Virus record (IMG/VR): IMGVR_UViG_638277085_000001
Location: 163,399 to 227,398 of that record
Direction: 5' to 3' (one strand)
From: a virus
Lineage: Duplodnaviria; Heunggongvirae; Uroviricota; Caudoviricetes; Straboviridae
Length of the DNA: 64,000 nt
A program made the translations under genes and the position numbers. Every line of letters starts with the position of its first letter. Position 1 is the stretch's first letter. The notes beneath the pieces were generated by a model. The model did no database searches and was not told the origin of the DNA. It was given only the letters and a program-made list of their open reading frames with translations. Positions 6,322 through 15,109 of the stretch are shown here, in pieces.

Positions 6322-6412
6322 TGTTTATTCCTCATATTAAATTGCTGTAAAATGTCGTTTTGATGTGATGATTATACACGGATTTGAACCCGTGTAAACA
6401 CTTTTTTCAATT

Positions 6413-9440: not shown

Positions 9441-9464
9441 AAAAAAACCTGCTCAAGGCAGGTT
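9441..9464 (-). terminator. Rho-independent terminator on the minus strand (acctgc tcaag gcaggt after an A-run on the plus strand)
   Basis: Hairpin plus T-run when read on the minus strand. It lies downstream (in the minus direction) of the tRNA block. Confidence 0.55.
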
Positions 9465-9738
9465 CTAATGTGCAATACACAGACATTCGAGAATTGTTTT
9501 ATCGTCTTTCCTTAAATCTCAATTGACTATCTCGATGTTTCTCATCAAGAGAATACCCATGATTCGGCATGAGACCTATTTCGTTTAACAGTACGAACAC
9601 CGTCTTAATGGTCATTTCCTACCACGAGAATGCGACAGGCTCACGTCATCACTGAGAAAGCAGCTAGTGCGCCTCATTACTATTAAAGTTTGCTTCTTTG
9701 ATTAGTAATAGTTGCTGTACAATGTCTTATTGCGAATT

Positions 9739-9827
9739 TGGCGGAGATACTGGGAATCGAACCCAGAGAACGCTATTAACGTCCGACACCTTAGCAGGGT
9801 GCTGTCATACCTTTAGACCATATCTCC
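9739..9827 (-). tRNA. tRNA-Ser(GCU), type II with a long variable arm; CCA encoded
   Basis: Hand fold: 7-bp acceptor GGAGATA/TATCTCC, T-arm CTGGG TTCGATT CCCAG, anticodon stem GCACC/GGTGT with loop CTGCTAA. Confidence 0.65.
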
Positions 9828-9833
9828 GTAGAT

Positions 9834-10012
9834 CATTTCTTACCACGCTCTGCTTTGCTAATCTCGACAGCAGCGATTTGCGCGTTGGCTTCTTTCTCAG
9901 TGTCATGAGTACCAAGTACTCGACCTTTAGATGAAAGAGCAACCCATTTGTCGCCACGCTTCTCGACTTTCTCAACAAGCTTGTGATATTCATCAAATGT
10001 TTTAAGTTTCAT
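9834..10012 (-). CDS. Small hypothetical protein (59 aa, MKLKTFDEYHKLVEKVEKRGDKWVALSSKGRVLGTHDTEKEANAQIAAVEISKAERGKK). It is absent from the ORF track because it is under 60 aa.
   Basis: ATG preceded by GAGGGA. A clean ORF lies between tRNA-Ser and the next intergenic region. Confidence 0.5.
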
Positions 10013-10267
10013 GTGTCATCCCTCAGTTAGTTTATTGTATTTATAACTGAACGACTTTTAAACAGTGGCATGCTGCTCCCATGCTCAGACACATATTTGC
10101 TCTTAATGCAGGCGTGTGCCACGCGCAGCGCAGATCCCATTCGATAATTTAATGACCAGCGGGACTCTTAGCAGGTCTACACATAGCCTTTCAGCTATAT
10201 CTTCTTTTAAGACCATAGTGTCGTACGGTCTAATCACTCTCTTTCGATTCGCGTTGCTAAGTGAATT

Positions 10268-10344
10268 TGGTGCCCAACCCGAGATTCGAACTCGGATCAT
10301 CTAGTGTTTGAAACTAGCGCCTCTGCCAATTGGACTAGTTGGGC
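10268..10344 (-). tRNA. tRNA with anticodon CAA (Leu-decoding) but a short 5-nt variable loop (type I); A73; CCA encoded
   Basis: Acceptor GCCCAAC/GTTGGGC is perfect. D-arm is GTCC-AATTGGCAG-AGGC. Anticodon stem CTAGT/ACTAG with loop TTCAAAC. T-arm CCGAG TTCGAAT CTCGG. Confidence 0.55.
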
Positions 10345-10460
10345 TTGAATAAGCTGCCGCAACTCTTTAATCCCTAACGCCTGTCAGCTTTCGCTCGGCT
10401 GAGACCGTTTTTCAACGGCGGTAGTCTAGCTTCGTGTAGAACGCGGCTTATGCTAGAGTT

Positions 10461-10537
10461 TGGTACGCACGGGCGGATTCGAACCGCCATCCCTGAGATT
10501 TTAAGCCTCATGCCTCTGCCAATTGGACCACGTGCGC
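10461..10537 (-). tRNA. tRNA with anticodon UAA (Leu-decoding), type I; A73; CCA encoded
   Basis: Acceptor GCGCACG/CGTGCGT (G1.U72). D-arm nearly identical to that of 10268..10344. Anticodon stem TGAGG/TCTCA, loop CTTAAAA. Confidence 0.55.
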
Positions 10538-10539
10538 AG

Positions 10540-10613
10540 TGGAGCCCGAACAGAGAATCGAACTCTGACCGCGGGATTTGCAATCCCTCATACTTCCATT
10601 ATACGATTCGGGC
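10540..10613 (-). tRNA. tRNA-Cys(GCA); CCA encoded
   Basis: Acceptor GCCCGAA/TTCGGGC. Anticodon loop TTGCAAA. T-arm CAGAG TTCGATT CTCTG. Confidence 0.65.
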
Positions 10614-10716
10614 AATTTGTTAGTGCATTGCATGGACTACTGGCGATCTTAATGGGTATCTCAAGCATTCAGAATTCCCATGCGCTACTACAATGCTTTT
10701 TTCGCTAAATGCACTT

Positions 10717-10793
10717 TGGGGTGACAGACGGGGATCGAACCCGCATCTTCCGGAATCACAACCCGGGGGTATTTCCACTTCACCCACTGCCAC
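10717..10793 (-). tRNA. tRNA-His(GUG); discriminator C73; CCA encoded
   Basis: Acceptor GTGGCAG/CTGTCAC. Anticodon stem CCGGG/TCCGG, loop TTGTGAT. Confidence 0.65.
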
Positions 10794-10847
10794 ACCAAAG
10801 TACACTTTGGGATGTTTACGACATCAAACGAATGCGCTCCCTGTGCA

Positions 10848-11087
10848 TTAATCAGTTTTCTTTAAGTAGATACTATCAGGCGATAGCTCTCTCGTAAACA
10901 TATTTTTGAAATAAATTTCGATGTCATCAGAAGTTGTTGAAGACTCAATTTCAAGAGCACGTTCTAAAATCTTACCGCGTTTATAACCAGCGCGCCAACA
11001 GTCAAACATAAGTCTGTCCATGCGTTTCAGTTTTTCAATTTGGTTTTGATTTACGTATTCGTGAGTTTCAAGTAATACAGGCGTCAT
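10848..11087 (-). CDS. Hypothetical protein
   Basis: 79-aa ORF located between tRNA genes. Confidence 0.4.
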   Translation of the reverse strand: MTPVLLETHEYVNQNQIEKLKRMDRLMFDCWRAGYKRGKILERALEIESSTTSDDIEIYFKNMFTRELSPDSIYLKKTD

Positions 11088-11100
11088 AATTTATTTCTCA

Positions 11101-11174
11101 TCATAAAGAATGGTAGTCCCTAGTGGAATCGAGCCACTTCTTTCTCTGTGTAAAAGAGACGTACTGCCATTATA
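11101..11174 (-). tRNA. tRNA-Val(UAC); CCA encoded
   Basis: Acceptor GGTCCCT/AGGGACT. Anticodon stem TCTCT/AGAGA, loop TTTACAC. The T-loop CTCGATT is slightly atypical. Confidence 0.6.
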
Positions 11175-11179
11175 CTAAG

Positions 11180-11253
11180 GGACCAAAATTGGAGCGGGTA
11201 CACGGACTCGAACCGAGACGAACGACTTGGAAGGACGTCATGCTACCATTACA
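11180..11253 (-). tRNA. tRNA-Gly(UCC); CCA encoded
   Basis: Acceptor GCGGGTA/TACCCGC is perfect. Anticodon loop CTTCCAA. Confidence 0.65.
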
Positions 11254-11267
11254 TCATACCCGCATTG

Positions 11268-11462
11268 TTAATCTGAAGCGTCGAACAAATCACGTATTGC
11301 ACGCAGATTCGTAAGCTCTACAGTAAGTGTTCTTATAAAGAACGGGTTGGTCTCTTTCGCGAGACGATTTTCAACACAGCGAATCTTATCGCGTATGTTG
11401 CCCTTGCTTAGTGTAAAGTAGTCATGCTTCTTATCCTCTTTGCTTGAATTTGGTGGAGACAC
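11268..11462 (-). CDS. Doubtful small ORF (no ATG; it would need a GTG start inside the 3' end of the adjacent tRNA)
   Basis: ORF-track ORF of 64 aa. Its 5' end overlaps tRNA 11451..11526. Confidence 0.2.
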   Translation of the reverse strand: MSPPNSSKEDKKHDYFTLSKGNIRDKIRCVENRLAKETNPFFIRTLTVELTNLRAIRDLFDASD

Positions 11463-11526
11463 CGATACTCGAAATCGGATCTAATGGCTTATGAGACCAT
11501 TGCTCTACCACTTGAGCTACATCTCC
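11451..11526 (-). tRNA. tRNA with anticodon CAU (elongator Met or lysidine-Ile2); CCA encoded
   Basis: Acceptor GGAGATG/TGTCTCC. D-arm GCTC-AAGTGGTA-GAGC. Anticodon stem ATGGT/GCCAT, loop CTCATAA. Confidence 0.6.
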
Positions 11527-12030
11527 AAAATCAGTAATTAACTCATTTAATCGCACACGGGCTGACACCATATATTCATGGTCTGAGCGAGGAACCACAT
11601 AGTGGGTACTATTACCTCATCTTAGTTTTGATTGTTTTACATGACGATAACTAGAAACGTTCATAATAATGCCACGCGATACTTCCTGTATCACGGCTAA
11701 CTGAGTTAGCATATCGTGCCTTGCGGCTGTAGTGTCGTTTCCGACGAATTAAGTACAGACAATACCGAAGTGTTTTTTCGTCTTTGACATGAATCGGAGT
11801 TGACTATCTTGTTATTCACAACAAGCAAATATCGTCTGTTTCAGCGACGCGCCTATCTGACTATTTCTAGACAGAGAGAATCTTTCCTTTCAAGCTGCAC
11901 CGAAGCACCGCCCAGGTTAAGATCATTACCATTTTAAGTAAGATTTTAATTTGTTGCTGTATATTGTCTCTCAAACCATGCTCGTGATATGCCGAAGCAA
12001 GTATCATTCGGCGCATGATAGAGCTTAATT

Positions 12031-12106
12031 TGGCATCCCCAGAGGGATTCGAACCCACAACCCACGACTTAGAAGGTCGTTGCTCTTCCAATTGAGCTAT
12101 GAGGAC
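12031..12106 (-). tRNA. tRNA-Arg(UCU); CCA encoded
   Basis: Anticodon stem ACGAC/GTCGT, loop CTTCTAA. T-arm GTGGG TTCGAAT CCCTC. Confidence 0.6.
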
Positions 12107-12182
12107 GTTGAAAGTATTCGATCCATGAGCTATTGCGCAGACGATGGTAGTAAAGAGACTCTGCACTCATGTGATCGAAATT

Positions 12183-12258
12183 TGGTGGACACGCAGGGAG
12201 TCGAACCCTATCTTCCTCATTGCAAGTGAGGCGCTTTCCCAATTAAGCTAACGGCCCA
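12183..12258 (-). tRNA. tRNA-Ala(UGC)-like with G3.U70 present but the lower three acceptor pairs mismatched (possible pseudo-tRNA)
   Basis: D-arm GCTT-AATTGGGA-AAGC. Anticodon stem CCTCA/TGAGG, loop CTTGCAA. T-arm TAGGG TTCGACT CCCTG. The 5' end GGGCCGT versus 3' end CGTGTCC pairs only at positions 1-4. Confidence 0.45.
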
Positions 12259-12268
12259 ATGTTCGTTT

Positions 12269-12480
12269 TTACAACTGTGTGATTGAGATATGATCCCAGC
12301 CGTATAAACCTTCAAGTTCTTCAATAGGCTCACAAACAATGTCAGAAATATATTCAGCAACTTTTGCTTCAATTTCTTCATCAGATAGCTTTTCATCAAT
12401 TGCAAAAGCATCTTCATTATTGTTGCCACCGAAATAGCCACCAATGTCATATTCACACCATACTGAAATATAGTTCATGT
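12269..12480 (-). CDS. Hypothetical acidic small protein (start placed at MNYISVW; the ORF track extends it into the tRNA)
   Basis: 70-aa ORF. The longer track version overlaps tRNA-Thr. Confidence 0.35.
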
Positions 12481-12502
12481 TATTCTCACAGTTGTTTGAA
12501 AA

Positions 12503-12578
12503 TGGTGCCCTGACACGGATTTGAACCGCGAACCTGCTCATTACAAGTGAGCTGCACTGCCAATTGTGCTATCAGGGC
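12503..12578 (-). tRNA. tRNA-Thr(UGU); CCA encoded
   Basis: Acceptor GCCCTGA/TCAGGGC is perfect. Anticodon stem GCTCA/TGAGC, loop CTTGTAA. Confidence 0.65.
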
Positions 12579-12706
12579 GTTACTGAGTGTTATTACTTGC
12601 GTCGTCCAGACCAGAGATACCAACTCTGAAAGGGAATCGAACCCCAAACATTTCTTTTCGTAAGAAGAATATTAGTAATTGTTTGCTGAAAACACTCTTC
12701 GGTATT

Positions 12707-12780
12707 TGGCAGGGGATAACGGATTCGAACCGGTACTGCGTGAGTCAAAGTCACGTATGCTGCCTTTACATCAATCCCCT
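12707..12780 (-). tRNA. tRNA-Gln(UUG); CCA encoded
   Basis: Acceptor AGGGGAT/ATCCCCT. Anticodon stem CGTGA/TCACG, loop CTTTGAC. Confidence 0.6.
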
Positions 12781-12799
12781 ATTATTCTTAAATTATCTT

Positions 12800-12875
12800 T
12801 GGCGGAACCGACGGGTTTCGAACCCGCTACCTTCTCCGTGACAGGGAGACATGCAACCACTTACACCTCGGCTCC
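12800..12875 (-). tRNA. tRNA-Asp(GUC); CCA encoded
   Basis: Acceptor GGAGCCG/CGGTTCC. Anticodon stem TCTCC/GGAGA, loop CTGTCAC. Confidence 0.6.
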
Positions 12876-13097
12876 CCAAAGACAACTTAACGTTGCTTTG
12901 TGCTCGTGCAAACCAAACACTAGCTGAACGACTTCTTGATTTCTTAGTTGTACTACACATTCCCTCGCTAAAGGGCGTCATCGTTCTTGTTTTTAACAAA
13001 TGCTATGAAAGTGAGATCTTGCTATGCAGGAGGTTTCAAATCTCTGCACACAAGCAGACATCGCAACCAACGCTCTCAAACATTGTCATGGTCAAAC

Positions 13098-13173
13098 TGG
13101 CGCCTTATGTTGGACTCGAACCAACGACTCTCTGGTTAACAGCCAGACACTCTACCGACTGAGTTAATAAGGC
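13098..13173 (-). tRNA. tRNA-Asn(GUU), copy 1; CCA encoded
   Basis: Acceptor GCCTTAT/ATAAGGC. Anticodon stem TCTGG/CCAGA, loop CTGTTAA. Confidence 0.6.
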
Positions 13174-13179
13174 AAAATA

Positions 13180-13254
13180 TGGCGGGCGTGGAGAATTTCG
13201 AAATCTCGACCTGACGGTTAACAGCCGTCTGCTCTGCCTCTGAGCTACACACCC
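13180..13254 (-). tRNA. tRNA-Asn(GUU), copy 2 (divergent sequence; atypical palindromic T-arm with a 53-61 mismatch); CCA encoded
   Basis: Acceptor GGGTGTG/CACGCCC. Anticodon stem GACGG/CCGTC, loop CTGTTAA. T-arm GAGAT TTCGAAA TTCTC. Confidence 0.5.
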
Positions 13255-13332
13255 TTTAAATTAAACAGCAATCCTTTTCTCTTTTTCCAAATAAAAGTTT
13301 TGTATTGTTTGCTGAAAGATTGCTTAATTCTG

Positions 13333-13527
13333 TTACGACGTAAACTGCTCGACTTTACAAGAGTCAACATCGTCAAACTTTTCGATTCGTTTAGCTAACA
13401 TTTTAGCCTTTCGCTCAATCGAGCGATCTTCGTAACCGAATTCAGATTTGTTATTGTCACAAGCTAATGCGCTCGACTTGACAACAGTCGAATCATTCAT
13501 TACCATCACTAGTCTGTACATAAACAC
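13333..13527 (-). CDS. Hypothetical protein
   Basis: 64-aa ORF between tRNA genes. Confidence 0.35.
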   Translation of the reverse strand: MFMYRLVMVMNDSTVVKSSALACDNNKSEFGYEDRSIERKAKMLAKRIEKFDDVDSCKVEQFTS

Positions 13528-13536
13528 CTCTGATAA

Positions 13537-13610
13537 TTGGCAGGGACATAGAGATTCGAACTCTAACGAACGGGTTTGGAATCCGTCATGCTGCCGTTAC
13601 ATCATGTCCC
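13537..13610 (-). tRNA. tRNA-Trp(CCA); CCA encoded
   Basis: Acceptor AGGGACA/TGTCCCT is perfect. Anticodon loop TTCCAAA. Confidence 0.6.
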
Positions 13611-13616
13611 TAAAAT

Positions 13617-13690
13617 TTGGTAGCCCCAGACAGACTCGAACTGTCAACGTGCGATTATCGGTCGCGTGTTTTACCGTTAAACTATGGAGC
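13617..13690 (-). tRNA. tRNA-Ile(GAU) (C at position 33 and a C.A at 27-43 in my fold); CCA encoded
   Basis: Acceptor AGCTCCA/TGGGGCT. Anticodon region CGCGA CCGATAA TCGCA. Confidence 0.5.
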
Positions 13691-13755
13691 TAAAGTGAGC
13701 ACATTTCAGTGCTCGTGTTAATCGGTTAAGTGACTAAACTTCCCGGTTAACTAAT

Positions 13756-13854
13756 TGGCGGAAGACTAGGGATTCGAACCCTAACATCACCTCCCGGTGA
13801 CCGACGGTTTTCAAGACCGTTGCCGCTACCCAGAATCTTTCGGCTAAGCCTTCC
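13756..13854 (-). tRNA. tRNA-Ser(UGA), type II, unusually long (96 nt + CCA) with an oversized D-loop
   Basis: Acceptor GGAAGGC/GTCTTCC. Anticodon stem ACGGT/ACCGT, loop CTTGAAA. Variable arm TCACC-GGGA-GGTGA. Confidence 0.5.
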
Positions 13855-13861
13855 ATTAATT

Positions 13862-13937
13862 TGGTAGCGAGTGCCAGAATCGAACTGACCTAAACTAGCT
13901 TATGAGACTAGTGAGTTCACCAGAACTCTAACTCGCA
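13862..13937 (-). tRNA. tRNA with anticodon CAU (Met/Ile2 candidate) and an unpaired 1-72 (U.U); CCA encoded
   Basis: D-arm GAGT-TCTGGTGA-ACTC. Anticodon stem CTAGT/GCTAG, loop CTCATAA. Confidence 0.55.
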
Positions 13938-14038
13938 ATTATTCAACAGCTTGCGTTCTTTGGTCTGTTTATCGCTGTCTGAACTGAGTTCGCCGAGCGA
14001 TCAATAGATTAAGTTGAATTGCAGTATGCAAGCTAAAT

Positions 14039-14124
14039 TTGGTGGAGCGTAGAGGAATCGAACCTCTCTTCCCATTACGGGACACGGATTTACAGTCCGC
14101 TGCCGCACCTTGCGGCTTACGCTC
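14039..14124 (-). tRNA. tRNA-Tyr(GUA), type II; CCA encoded
   Basis: Acceptor GGAGCGT/ACGCTCC is perfect. Anticodon loop CTGTAAA. Variable stem TCCC/GGGA. Confidence 0.65.
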
Positions 14125-14130
14125 CAGAAT

Positions 14131-14205
14131 TTGGTACTCGATACGGGAGTCGAACCCGTCCTACTTCCTTGAAAGGGAAGTGACCTACCGATAGTCGAAT
14201 CGAGC
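14131..14205 (-). tRNA. tRNA-Glu(UUC); CCA encoded
   Basis: Anticodon stem CTTCC/GGAAG, loop CTTTCAA. D-stem is 3 bp. Confidence 0.55.
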
Positions 14206-14269
14206 ATTAAATTGTATATTGATTTGCAAGCTAATCAACTCGCAAAGCGATACACAATGTATCTAATTT

Positions 14270-14346
14270 GGTACGCCGCCCTGGACTCGAACCAGACACC
14301 TGAGAGTTAAAAGCTCCCTGCTCTTCCATGATGAGCTACCGACGCA
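14270..14346 (-). tRNA. tRNA-Lys(UUU), copy 1; CCA encoded
   Basis: D-arm GCTC-ATCATGGAA-GAGC. Anticodon stem GGGAG/CTCTC, loop CTTTTAA. G.G at 7-66. Confidence 0.55.
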
Positions 14347-14354
14347 TTATAAAA

Positions 14355-14429
14355 TCTGGTGGGTCGCAAGAGATTCGAACTCTCACCGTTCTGGTTAAAA
14401 GCCAGATGTACTACCGTTATACGAACGAC
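14355..14429 (-). tRNA. tRNA-Lys(UUU), copy 2 (divergent); CCA encoded
   Basis: Acceptor GGGTCGT/GCGACCC. Anticodon stem TCTGG/CCAGA, loop CTTTTAA. Confidence 0.6.
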
Positions 14430-14435
14430 CCAGAA

Positions 14436-14510
14436 TGTGGTGCACCCCCTCGGAATCGAACCGAGCACTGCGGGACTTCAATCCGCCGCTTTTCCTGATA
14501 AGCTAAGGGT
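14436..14510 (-). tRNA. tRNA-Phe(GAA); CCA encoded
   Basis: Acceptor GCACCCT/GGGGTGC. Anticodon loop TTGAAGT. Confidence 0.6.
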
Positions 14511-14511
14511 G

Positions 14512-14589
14512 CATGGTACGCAAGAAGAGATTCGAACTCTTAACTTCTGGTTTCTAAGACCAGTGCCTCTGCCAGATTGGGCTACTTGC
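14512..14589 (-). tRNA. tRNA with anticodon UAG (Leu-decoding), type I with a short variable loop; A73; CCA encoded
   Basis: Acceptor GCGCAAG/CTTGCGT. D-arm GCCC-AATCTGGCAG-AGGC. Anticodon stem CTGGT/ACCAG, loop CTTAGAA. Confidence 0.55.
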
Positions 14590-14624
14590 GCATTGTTTGT
14601 TTTTGAACGTTACTTCGTTCTTCT

Positions 14625-14660
14625 TCATTGTACATGATGTTTATATCGTTGTAAACATCT
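14625..14660 (-). promoter_or_regulatory. T4-early-like sigma70 promoter (minus strand: A-rich UP, -35 GTTTAC, 18-nt spacer, -10 TACAAT), copy 1 of a tandem pair
   Basis: The reverse complement reads aaaaaagatGTTTACaacgatataaacatcatgTACAATgaag. It sits immediately upstream (minus orientation) of the tRNA block starting at 14589. Confidence 0.5.
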
Positions 14661-14709
14661 TTTTTGAAAAACTTTTCATTAACTTTTGAATGATATTTCG
14701 CTTTTCTCT

Positions 14710-14745
14710 ATTGTACATGATGTTTATATCGTTGTAAACATCTTT
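14710..14745 (-). promoter_or_regulatory. T4-early-like promoter, copy 2 (35/36 identical to copy 1)
   Basis: Same GTTTAC-N18-TACAAT arrangement. The two copies form a direct repeat 80 bp apart. Confidence 0.5.
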
Positions 14746-14903
14746 TTAAATTTATTTTGAAGAACTTAACGTTTTCATTTTTCTATGTGTTAATCTTAAC
14801 ACTCGCTCAAGACATCTTAAACACTAATTTGTGAAAAAGTTCGTTAAATTCTATCATCACGACAGTACTTAACGAGATACGGTCCTAAGCGTATCAAATT
14901 AAT

Positions 14904-15028
14904 TCAGAATGGTGAGACTTGAACTCACTTCGAGTAATAGCGTAAACTAACAGTTGTTGCCAGAGGCTATCAATTATTCTCTACCGAGTATGTTGCAACT
15001 CTGCATTTCCCCATTTCTAGGCATTCTG
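14904..15028 (-). ncRNA. 125-nt tRNA-like element. The termini form a perfect 7-bp acceptor-like helix (CAGAATG/CATTCTG) stacked on a T-arm (GTGAG TTCAAGT CTCAC), with a roughly 90-nt non-cloverleaf body.
   Basis: Acceptor and T-arm complementarity seen directly. There is no D or anticodon arm and no encoded CCA. Confidence 0.35.
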
Positions 15029-15033
15029 AAATA

Positions 15034-15109
15034 TGGCACCCCACAGAAGATTCGAACTTCTAACCTGCGCCTTCGTAGGACGCTGCTCTTCCAATTGAGC
15101 TAGTAGGGC
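15034..15109 (-). tRNA. tRNA-Arg(ACG); CCA encoded
   Basis: D-arm GCTC-AATTGGAA-GAGC. Anticodon stem GCGTC/GGCGC, loop CTACGAA. Confidence 0.6.

What the first reader, a model, noticed from the sequence alone, without database searches (positions are those of the whole stretch)
14625..14745. Tandem duplicated T4-early-type promoters driving the tRNA island
There are two 36-bp direct repeats (14625..14660 and 14710..14745, one mismatch). On the minus strand each reads A-rich UP element, GTTTAC, 18 nt, TACAAT. This is the T4 early promoter architecture, pointing into the tRNA block that starts at 14589. On the plus strand the same sequences fold as an AT-rich hairpin followed by a T-run, so they may double as plus-strand terminators or attenuators. 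A duplicated strong early promoter in front of a 30-gene tRNA operon is a plausible way to flood the cell with phage tRNAs early.
Basis: partly seen in the sequence, partly recalled or inferred. Interest (0 to 1): 0.55.

Follow-up and report, generated by a model that had tools for sequence, protein, structure and literature searches.

The report
Tandem tRNA promoters in vibriophage KVP40
The repeat is real: it is two copies of a conserved bacterial-type (T4-early-like) promoter, part of a row of three sitting inside the tRNA gene cluster of Vibrio phage KVP40. This is a sound but fairly ordinary way to drive stable-RNA genes hard.

Summary
The window is Vibrio phage KVP40 (record position = window + 163398). 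It extends to 64 nt at 89% identity.

On the minus strand each copy reads AAAAAGAT-GTTTAC-N18-TACAAT. The proximal -10 box ends 35 nt before tRNA-Leu(tag).

Across the KVP40 genome, GTTTAN-N18-TANNAT occurs 37 times against 2.6 expected. It is enriched only at 18-nt spacing and lies on the gene strand. So KVP40 has a T4-early-geometry promoter class, and these two copies belong to it.

In 17 related phages the A-tract, -35 and -10 are invariant or nearly so, while 8 spacer bases vary. Eleven phages keep two copies and six keep one.

The copies sit inside the cluster, not at its head. Pro-Pro-Arg tRNAs with their own promoter (P4, 15297-15326) lie upstream. A third conserved promoter with an extended -10 (P3, 14793-14822) lies 83 bp upstream of the distal copy.

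The plus-strand terminator idea is weak. Early timing is untested.

Verdict: a new member of a known kind, of modest interest.

The parts
14627..14665 (-). P1, the proximal promoter. The -10 box TACAAT is at 14627-14632, the -35 box GTTTAC at 14651-14656, and the A-tract at 14660-14665. The predicted start site is about 14620, 29 nt before the tRNA-Leu 5' end.
14710..14747 (-). P2, the distal promoter. The -10 box TACAAT is at 14710-14715, the -35 box GTTTAC at 14734-14739, and the A-tract at 14743-14747. The predicted start site is about 14703.
14601..14747 (.). Tandem repeat with an 83-bp period. The matching parts are 14601-14664 and 14684-14747 (64 nt, 89% identity), with an exact 38-nt core.
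14636..14659 (.). Inverted repeat GATGTTT(A)-N8-(T)AAACATC, overlapping the -35 box and spacer of P1. The same repeat lies at 14719-14742 in P2.
   Evidence: It occurs nowhere else in the KVP40 genome.
14666..14706 (-). P2 leader hairpin, lying between the P2 -10 box and the P1 A-tract.
   Evidence: 13 predicted pairs, 3 of them with changes on both sides (for example CATTC/GAATG against CGTTC/GAACG).
14793..14822 (-). P3, a third promoter 83 bp upstream of P2. It reads GTTTAA-N18-TAAGAT with an extended -10 (TGn) at 14800-14801. The predicted start site is about 14786.
   Evidence: GTTTA, TG, T-12, A-11, A-8 and T-7 are invariant in 17 phages, while positions -10 and -9 vary.
15297..15326 (-). 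P4, GTTTAA-N18-TATGAT, in front of tRNA-Pro (5' end at 15276).
   Evidence: (present in 16 of 17 phages).
15357..15377 (-). Intrinsic-terminator-like hairpin followed by a T-run, just upstream of P4.
14514..14591 (-). tRNA-Leu(tag), the first gene downstream of P1.
9739..14591 (-). Block of 24 tRNA genes, one pseudo-tRNA and small ORFs downstream of P1-P3. No minus-strand terminator-like site was found before 9955.
9444..9466 (-). Terminator-like site at the end of the tRNA block.
14834..14895 (-). Conserved two-hairpin element (14841-14895) followed by T5 (14834-14838), between tRNA-Arg and P3. It may be the 3' end or a processing structure of the upstream transcription unit.

Best explanation
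The two repeats are two functional copies (P2 distal, P1 proximal) of a promoter read by the host's sigma-70 RNA polymerase. The promoter has the bacteriophage T4 early geometry: an A-tract at -44 to -40, GTTTAC at -36 to -31, an 18-nt gap, and TACAAT at -12 to -7.

Together with a diverged third unit (P3, GTTTAA-N18-TGt-TAAGAT) they form an array of three promoters spaced about 83 bp apart, inside the KVP40 tRNA cluster. The array starts transcripts that begin 7 to 35 nt upstream of tRNA-Leu(tag), or of an inserted tRNA-Pro in some relatives. These transcripts run through about 24 tRNA genes to a terminator near 9450.

The array adds to read-through from P4, which serves Pro-Pro-Arg upstream.

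The duplication is old. It is kept in most of the genus, the two copies have been made identical again in KVP40 by gene conversion, and it has been lost repeatedly by recombination between the copies.

What is shown: the motif, the genome-wide promoter class, the conservation pattern and the gene context. What is inferred: promoter activity, promoter strength, early timing, and any dosage benefit from two copies.
For: 1. Motif. Each copy matches 10 of 12 positions of TTGACA-N17-TATAAT. Each fits exactly the T4/PST consensus TTTACW-N17-TAYWAT given in PMC4122927. Each also fits the T4 layout of GTTTAC at -36 to -31 with an A-rich -40 to -44 region given in PMC1524935.

2. Promoter class. In the whole KVP40 genome GTTTAN-N18-TANNAT gives 37 hits against 2.6 +/- 1.6 in 40 dinucleotide shuffles. 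Spacers of 15-17 and 19-21 nt give only 2-6 hits. In the region 1-160.4 kb, 24 of 26 hits lie on the gene strand (p = 1e-5). Many hits sit just upstream of gene starts. At positions not fixed by the search pattern, P1 and P2 score 0.7 and 4.5; class members score a mean of -0.8 and background scores -8.5.

3. Conservation. There are 28 copies in 17 phages, 24 of them distinct. Positions -42 to -41, -39 to -31, -22 to -18, -16, -12 to -11 and -9 to -7 are invariant. Positions -30 to -23 vary. In nt-1 the -10 box is TATAAT.

4. Context. In every phage a copy lies 14-35 nt upstream of a mature tRNA 5' end. In the ValKK3 group it lies directly upstream of an inserted ORFan.

5. Age of the duplication. 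The P2 spacer AATGACGA is shared by PG216, ValKK3 and D491s, while P1 in those phages carries AACGATAT or AACGAAGA. The P2 leader is homologous in all two-copy phages.

6. Real T4 early promoters in the T4 tRNA region have the same layout, for example ttttcacaaaact-GTTTAC-N18-TACTAT.

7. Early promoters 5' to tRNA genes have been reported for other T4-like phages (PMC1524935).
Against: There is no transcript-mapping data. No KVP40 or Schizotequatrovirus transcription start-site study was found.

P1 and P2 lack the TGn extended -10 that is typical of T4 early promoters; their TG sits one base out of register.

They do not fit the published KVP40/nt-1 PeSL promoter consensus TTGYVH-N17-TAWWAT.

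The conserved AAACATC at -22 to -16 is not explained by standard sigma-70 contacts.

Six relatives manage with one copy, so the second copy is not essential.
Confidence: 0.78

Rival explanations
1. Only one promoter matters. The second copy is a selectively neutral tandem duplication that comes and goes by unequal recombination between repeats, as described for PeSL (promoter-early stem-loop) cassettes, and gives no dosage function.
For: Copy number is polymorphic. Six of 17 phages have one copy, and the deletion outcomes differ: a P1-type leader in TCU-VP03, V09 and nt-1, but a P2-type leader in 1.081.O. Recombination between repeated promoter cassettes is documented in T4-type phages (PMC2839356 and PMC4122927).
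Against: In all 11 two-copy phages both copies keep intact -35, -10 and A-tract elements, although the surrounding leaders have diverged to about 60-70% identity. P2 copies in different phages are more alike than P1 and P2 within one phage, so the duplication has persisted since before the genus diverged.
Confidence: 0.25
2. The repeats act mainly as plus-strand intrinsic terminators or insulators (hairpin plus T-run) that stop transcription antisense to the tRNAs.
For: The plus-strand fold is -10.1 kcal/mol with z about -4, followed by T5-6. KVP40 PeSL cassettes do combine a hairpin with a promoter (PMC4122927).
Against: The stem has only 2 G-C pairs and failed the terminator scan. Its stability drops to -5.8 to -7.3 kcal/mol in most relatives and to -2.2 in 1.081.O. 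In three phages the P2 copy prefers a different fold. No TATAAATA motif lies on the plus strand in window 8-19 kb, and no member of the promoter class lies on the plus strand upstream. The T-run is simply the complement of the promoter's A-tract.
Confidence: 0.08
3. The conserved inverted repeat GATGTTT-N10-AAACATC over the -35 box and spacer is an operator. A dimeric phage or host protein binds both copies, which lie 83 bp (about 8 helical turns) apart, to switch tRNA transcription on or off. The promoters are then regulated rather than constitutive.
For: AAACATC at -22 to -16 is invariant or nearly so in 24 distinct copies, while the 8 nt between the arms vary freely. The one variant copy (1.081.O) breaks the pairing without a compensating change, which suggests a sequence constraint rather than a folding constraint.
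Against: No binding protein is known. The motif occurs nowhere else in the genome, so there is no regulon. Conservation could reflect RNA polymerase contacts with the spacer or descent from a PeSL-like hairpin.
Confidence: 0.12

Closest known systems
Bacteriophage T4 early promoters (for example those upstream of e.8, trna.4 and ipI in the T4 tRNA region)
   Same: GTTTAC at -36 to -31, an 18-nt gap to a TAnnAT -10 box, and an A-rich region at -40 to -44. They lie next to a tRNA cluster and are read by host sigma-70 RNA polymerase (PMC1524935, PMC2988021).
   Different: P1 and P2 lack the in-register TGn and the TTTCACAAA upstream block seen in the T4 examples; P3 has both. The host is Vibrio. 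No Alt-type stimulation or early timing has been shown.
PeSL promoter-terminator cassettes of T4-type phages (Arbiol 2010, Comeau 2014)
   Same: A repeated cassette with an AT-rich region, a sigma-70-like promoter and a stem-loop. It is associated with insertions and deletions: the copy-number polymorphism here, the ORFan insertion after P1 in the ValKK3 group, and a tRNA-Pro insertion in D491s and QD01. In KVP40's own PeSLs the hairpin overlaps the -35 box and spacer, as it does here.
   Different: The stem is AT-rich, at -7 kcal/mol on the promoter strand against -19.9 for a KVP40 PeSL. No U-run follows on the promoter strand. No Shine-Dalgarno sequence or ORF lies downstream. It does not fit the KVP40/nt-1 PeSL consensus. 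It scores -50 to -61 bits against a scoring matrix (PWM) built from KVP40 PeSLs. It is found only at this locus.
Tandem promoters of bacterial stable-RNA operons (E. coli rrn P1-P2) and tandem phage early promoters (T7 A1-A2-A3). This comparison is from general knowledge, not tested here.
   Same: Two or three strong sigma-70 promoters in series, about 80-120 bp apart, with A/T-rich upstream elements, in front of rRNA or tRNA genes or at the start of an early transcription unit.
   Different: Here the units are recognisable tandem duplicates of one another, phased at about 83 bp, and variable in copy number among close relatives.

Membership tests
T4-early-type promoter | GTTTAC-like -35 box at -36 to -31, with an 18-nt gap to the -10 hexamer | tested here: met
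   GTTTAC-N18-TACAAT in both copies. This spacing alone is enriched genome-wide in KVP40. The layout is as given in PMC1524935 and as seen in T4 itself.
T4-early-type promoter | -10 hexamer TAnnnT with conserved T-12, A-11 and T-7 | tested here: met
   TACAAT. T-12, A-11 and T-7 are present in 24 of 24 distinct copies.
T4-early-type promoter | A-rich, UP-like region at -40 to -44 | tested here: met
   AAAAA at -44 to -40, conserved in 23-24 of 24 copies.
T4-early-type promoter | TGn extended -10 at -15/-14 (the 'UP/-35/TGn/-10' architecture, PMC2988021) | tested here: not met
   P1 and P2 read ATG-TACAAT, placing TG at -14/-13. The neighbouring P3 does have TGn, invariant in 17 phages.
T4-early-type promoter | Used immediately after infection by unmodified host sigma-70 RNA polymerase | not testable with these tools
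   No transcript data were found.
PeSL cassette (T4-type phages) | Sigma-70-like early promoter with an AT-rich upstream region | tested here: met
PeSL cassette (T4-type phages) | Stem-loop that is an effective terminator (G/C-rich; A3-4G3-loop-C3T3-4 in KVP40/nt-1) | tested here: not met
   The stem is 8 bp and AT-rich, at -7.0 kcal/mol on the promoter strand with no U-run. A KVP40 PeSL hairpin folds at -19.9 kcal/mol.
PeSL cassette (T4-type phages) | KVP40/nt-1 promoter consensus TTGYVH-N17-TAWWAT | tested here: not met
   TTTACA and TACAAT fail at two positions. The score against the KVP40 PeSL matrix is -50 to -61 bits.
PeSL cassette (T4-type phages) | Shine-Dalgarno sequence and start codon downstream; many copies across hyperplastic regions | tested here: not met
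   tRNA genes lie downstream. The core occurs only at this locus.
PeSL cassette (T4-type phages) | Association with insertions and deletions between close relatives | tested here: met
   One copy against two copies, the ORFan insertion in ValKK3, phi-Grn1 and XZ1, and the tRNA-Pro insertion in D491s and QD01.
Intrinsic terminator (plus strand) | Stable G/C-containing hairpin immediately followed by a U-run, conserved among relatives | tested here: inconclusive
   KVP40 gives -10.1 kcal/mol plus U5-6. But the stem has only 2 G-C pairs, was not called by the scan, and is weak or lost in relatives.

The most novel reading that the evidence does not exclude
The three promoters, spaced 83 bp apart (about 8 helical turns, so on the same face of the DNA), form a regulated 'super-promoter'. 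In this reading the conserved palindrome GATGTTT-N10-AAACATC that overlaps the -35 box and spacer of P1 and P2 is an operator, or a PeSL-derived recombination module. It would let the phage time or throttle transcription of about 24 tRNAs. For example, P1 and P2 depend on their -35 box and would be silenced as KVP40 AsiA accumulates, while P3, which has a TGn extended -10, would persist. The same module would also let the tRNA cluster gain and lose cassettes.
Probability: 0.1. Interest if true: 0.5.

Novelty: new member of a known kind. Interest (0 to 1): 0.3.

Why it matters
If confirmed, the tRNA cluster of KVP40-like vibriophages gets a transcription map: promoter P4, then Pro-Pro-Arg, then a structured element, then promoters P3-P2-P1, then about 24 tRNAs.

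It also shows that these phages carry a T4-early-geometry promoter class with a rigid spacing (GTTTAN-N18-TAnnAT, about 35 sites). That class sits alongside the PeSL class already described. As I recall, the original KVP40 genome paper said that early-mode transcription features had not been identified; I could not read that paper here.

The natural one-copy and two-copy variants offer a ready test of whether tandem promoters raise phage tRNA supply.

Apart from that, tandem strong promoters in front of stable-RNA genes are textbook biology.

Tried and rejected
- Tandem Repeats Finder reported nothing. Two copies with diverged linkers fall below its score threshold.
- An Rfam search at E <= 1 found no family in the 14592-15033 gap.
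- No ORF of 60 aa or more lies in the gap. ORFs of 20-30 aa overlap the repeats, but these stretches carry no CDS annotation in most related phage records (one, PVA23, has an overlapping hypothetical CDS) and are not preserved across relatives.
- A scan of IMG/VR for the full motif returned only one contig, the same length as the VH7D genome.
- A metagenome scan with AGATGTTTAC-N8-AAACATC was too loose. It gave 120 or more chance hits and none with the full promoter. That scan was wasted.
- A scoring matrix (PWM) built iteratively from KVP40 PeSL promoters does not recognise P1 or P2. Membership of that sequence family is rejected.
- The inverted repeat was searched genome-wide as a possible regulon and occurs only here.
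- Similarity between T4 rnaC/rnaD and the KVP40 gap was tested by blastn. Only generic T-arm words matched.
- The KVP40 genome paper (PMC180978) is not held.
- No transcriptome or start-site study of KVP40-like phages was found.
- I did not build a full scoring matrix from T4 early promoters. Only 10 kb of T4 was fetched, which gave 6-7 example promoters.

Full report
**Identity of the window.** The region is 100% identical to Vibrio phage KVP40 (NC_005083.2 / AY283928.2). Window position 14000 equals record position 177398, so record = window + 163398. The finding lies in a 442-nt unannotated gap between tRNA-Arg(acg) (15034-15109) and tRNA-Leu(tag) (14514-14591). Both are on the minus strand, inside the phage's tRNA cluster.

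**The observation.**
- An exact 38-nt direct repeat, ATTGTACATGATGTTTATATCGTTGTAAACATCTTTTT, lies at 14627-14664 and 14710-14747. None of 100 shuffles gave a match.
- The similarity extends to 64 nt at 89% identity with an 83-nt period.
- All seven mismatches fall in the 26 nt downstream of the -10 box (Fisher p = 0.001). So the promoter core is either constrained or was recently made identical.
- On the minus strand each copy reads AAAAAGAT-GTTTAC-N18-TACAAT. This is the same as TTTACA-N17-TACAAT, a 10-of-12 match to the sigma-70 consensus.

**Is this a promoter type the phage actually uses?** I assembled the whole KVP40 genome.
- GTTTAC-N18-TAnAAT occurs only at these two sites.
- The relaxed pattern GTTTAN-N18-TANNAT gives 37 hits against 2.6 +/- 1.6 in 40 dinucleotide shuffles.
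- The same hexamers with spacers of 15, 16, 17, 19, 20 or 21 nt give only 2-6 hits.
- In the region 1-160.4 kb nearly all genes are on the plus strand, and 24 of 26 hits there are on the plus strand (p = 1e-5).
- Many hits sit just upstream of annotated starts, including nrdH, gene 43, folE, phoH and gene 1.

This shows a genuine promoter class with a rigid 18-nt gap. That gap is the T4 early geometry: GTTTAC at -36 to -31 and the -10 box at -12 to -7 (PMC1524935). Real T4 early promoters in the T4 tRNA region have the same layout.

P1 and P2 fit exactly the T4/PST consensus TTTACW-N17-TAYWAT quoted by Comeau et al. They do not fit that paper's KVP40/nt-1 PeSL (promoter-early stem-loop) consensus TTGYVH-N17-TAWWAT (PMC4122927).

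A scoring matrix (PWM) built iteratively from that second class recovers about 20 KVP40 PeSLs of the form AAAAGGGTTGCTTCGGCAGCCCTTTTctcgTATTATagctacATCGAAACGA. It scores P1 and P2 at -50 to -61 bits. KVP40 therefore has two promoter classes, and the tRNA cluster uses the T4-early-like one.

**Comparison with relatives.** Fifty phage records hold the gap sequence. I read 16 of them.
- Every one has the element between tRNA-Arg(acg) and tRNA-Leu(tag), or an inserted tRNA-Pro.
- Across 28 copies (24 distinct), positions -42 to -41, -39 to -31, -22 to -18, -16, -12 to -11 and -9 to -7 are invariant. Positions -30 to -23 vary freely. In nt-1 the -10 box is TATAAT.
- Two copies are present in KVP40, phi-pp2, PG216, VS1, ValKK3, PVA23, R10Z, VH7D, F86, D491s and QD01.
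- One copy is present in TCU-VP03, V07, V09, PVA8, nt-1 and 1.081.O.
- The distal spacer AATGACGA is shared by PG216, ValKK3 and D491s, while their proximal copies carry AACGATAT or AACGAAGA. The distal leader is homologous in all two-copy phages. So the duplication predates the divergence of the genus.
- The perfect identity of the two copies in KVP40 reflects homogenisation. PG216 is 96.6% identical to KVP40 here but still differs at 5 clustered spacer bases.
- The one-copy state arose by independent deletions. TCU-VP03, V09 and nt-1 kept a P1-type leader; 1.081.O kept a P2-type leader.
- In ValKK3, phi-Grn1 and XZ1 a 72-aa ORFan is inserted exactly between P1 and tRNA-Leu.

This behaviour matches the recombination between repeated promoter cassettes that has been described for PeSLs (PMC2839356 and PMC4122927).

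**A wider array of promoters.** The alignment of the gap and a motif scan of all loci reveal two more elements of the same geometry.
- P3 (14793-14822) reads GTTTAA-N18-TAAGAT and lies exactly 83 bp upstream of P2 (79-85 bp in relatives). Its GTTTA, a TGn extended -10, and T-12, A-11, A-8 and T-7 are invariant in 17 phages. Positions -10 and -9 vary (TAAGAT, TAATAT, TAGAAT, TATGAT, TACTAT, TAGTAT), which is the classic pattern for a sigma-70 -10 box.
- In F86, P3 reads AAAAAGAT-GTTTAA, like P1 and P2. This suggests the three units share an origin.
- P4 (15297-15326) reads GTTTAA-N18-TATGAT. It follows a strong terminator-like hairpin (15357-15377) and precedes tRNA-Pro.

The likely map is P4, then Pro-Pro-Arg, then P3-P2-P1, then Leu(tag) and the other tRNAs, 24 in all, down to a terminator-like site at 9444-9466. 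No minus-strand terminator-like site was called between 14627 and 9955.

**The hairpin.** GATGTTT(A)-N8-(T)AAACATC overlaps the -35 box and spacer.
- On the promoter strand it folds at -7.0 kcal/mol and no U-run follows.
- On the plus strand it folds at -10.1 kcal/mol and is followed by U5-6.
- In most relatives it is only -5.8 to -7.3 kcal/mol, and -2.2 in 1.081.O. Three distal copies prefer another fold.
- There is no plus-strand TATAAATA in window 8-19 kb and no plus-strand member of the promoter class nearby.
- The T-run is simply the complement of the promoter's conserved A-tract.

I therefore rate the plus-strand terminator idea as weak. The conservation of AAACATC at -22 to -16 remains unexplained. 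The motif occurs nowhere else in the genome. The only variant breaks the pairing without a compensating change. The options are contacts between RNA polymerase and the spacer, an operator, or descent from a PeSL-like hairpin; KVP40 PeSL hairpins also cover the -35 box and spacer.

The leader between P2 and P1 forms a small hairpin with three pairs changed on both sides.

**What is not shown.** I found no transcript or start-site data for KVP40-like phages. Promoter activity, strength, early timing and any dosage benefit from two copies are inferences. P1 and P2 lack an in-register TGn, so by analogy with T4 (PMC2988021) they may be more sensitive to KVP40 AsiA than P3. This is speculation.

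**Verdict.** The repeat is a real, conserved tandem pair of T4-early-geometry promoters. It belongs to a three-promoter array in front of most of the phage's tRNA genes. Early promoters 5' to tRNA genes are already reported in other T4-like phages, and tandem promoters before stable-RNA genes are classical. So this is a new member of a known kind. The modest added interest comes from the rigid-spacing promoter class in KVP40, the 83-bp phasing, and the natural copy-number variants.

Noticed in passing
window 14834-14895 (minus strand): A stretch of about 60 nt just after tRNA-Arg is nearly invariant in all 15 aligned phages, more so than its surroundings. It forms two hairpins: GATACG-CTTAGGAC-CGTATC, and TCGTTAA..CTGTC-loop-GATAG..TTAACGA. 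Two pairs show compensatory changes and some show G-U intermediates. In KVP40 a T5 run follows. It could be the terminator or processing structure of the upstream transcription unit, or a small functional RNA. There is no Rfam match.
   Followed up: partly
window 14900-15033 (minus strand): A 134-nt tRNA-like element found only in the KVP40 species group. It has a 9-bp acceptor-like stem (TTCAGAATG/CATTCTGAA), internal hairpins and a canonical T-arm (GTGAGTTCAAGTCTCAC). It is built like T4 rnaC (species 1 RNA) and, as in T4, follows tRNA-Arg. There is no sequence homology beyond the T-arm. ARAGORN and Rfam do not call it.
   Followed up: partly
window 14755-14775 (minus strand): The block AAAACGTTAAGTTCTTCAAAA, between the P3 -10 box and the P2 -35 box, is almost invariant across all phages. 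It is unique in the KVP40 genome. It might be a factor-binding site about 66 bp upstream of the P2 start, or part of the P3 leader.
   Followed up: no
window 15906-16018, 17572-17692, 17703-17815 (minus strand): Three tRNA-like genes of 113-121 nt score 50-55 bits against the Rfam tRNA model (gathering score 29). RefSeq annotates them as pseudo-tRNAs and ARAGORN misses them. They may be tRNAs carrying large insertions.
   Followed up: no
window 6371-6399 (minus strand; record 169769-169797): GTTTAC-N17-TATAAT with an A-tract, in the intergenic gap upstream of KVP40.0300 ('RNA-binding protein'). The spacer is a T-arm-like palindrome, TACACGG-GTTCAAAT-CCGTGTA. This is another promoter with a hairpin between the -35 and -10 boxes.
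   Followed up: no
L018-L020 (KVP40 record 16-150 kb, plus strand), e.g. record 39859, 54585, 109859: About 20 PeSL cassettes share a very tight consensus. A -19.9 kcal/mol hairpin (AAAAGGGTTGC-TTCG-GCAGCCCTTTT) covers the -35 box and spacer. It is followed by TATTAT and a conserved transcribed block, ATCGAAACGA.
   Followed up: partly
whole KVP40 genome (L018-L022 plus the window): GTTTAN-N18-TANNAT gives 37 sites against 2.6 expected, enriched only at the 18-nt spacing and concordant with gene strand. Examples lie upstream of nrdH, gene 43, folE, phoH and gene 1. I did not find this T4-early-geometry class described for KVP40.
   Followed up: partly
L144 (T4 record 70696) compared with window 14817-14838: The T4 early promoter after tRNA-Arg, rnaD, rnaC and a terminator reads ttttcacaaaact-GTTTAC. 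KVP40 P3, after tRNA-Arg and the structured element, reads tttttcacaaattagt-GTTTAA. This may be conserved synteny of a terminator-promoter junction.
   Followed up: no
L009 482-700 (ValKK3; also phi-Grn1 and XZ1): A 72-aa ORFan (phrog_23805, unknown function) is inserted exactly between P1 and tRNA-Leu. Its ATG lies 11 nt after the -10 box. In the ValKK3 record its note field reads 'portal vertex protein' (the product is given as hypothetical protein).
   Followed up: partly
window 14040-14126 (minus strand): RefSeq calls this tRNA-Pseudo-2. ARAGORN calls it tRNA-Tyr(gta). Rfam's best hit is tRNA-Sec, just above the gathering score (49.2 against 47). It is most likely a normal tRNA-Tyr with a long variable arm.
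   Followed up: no
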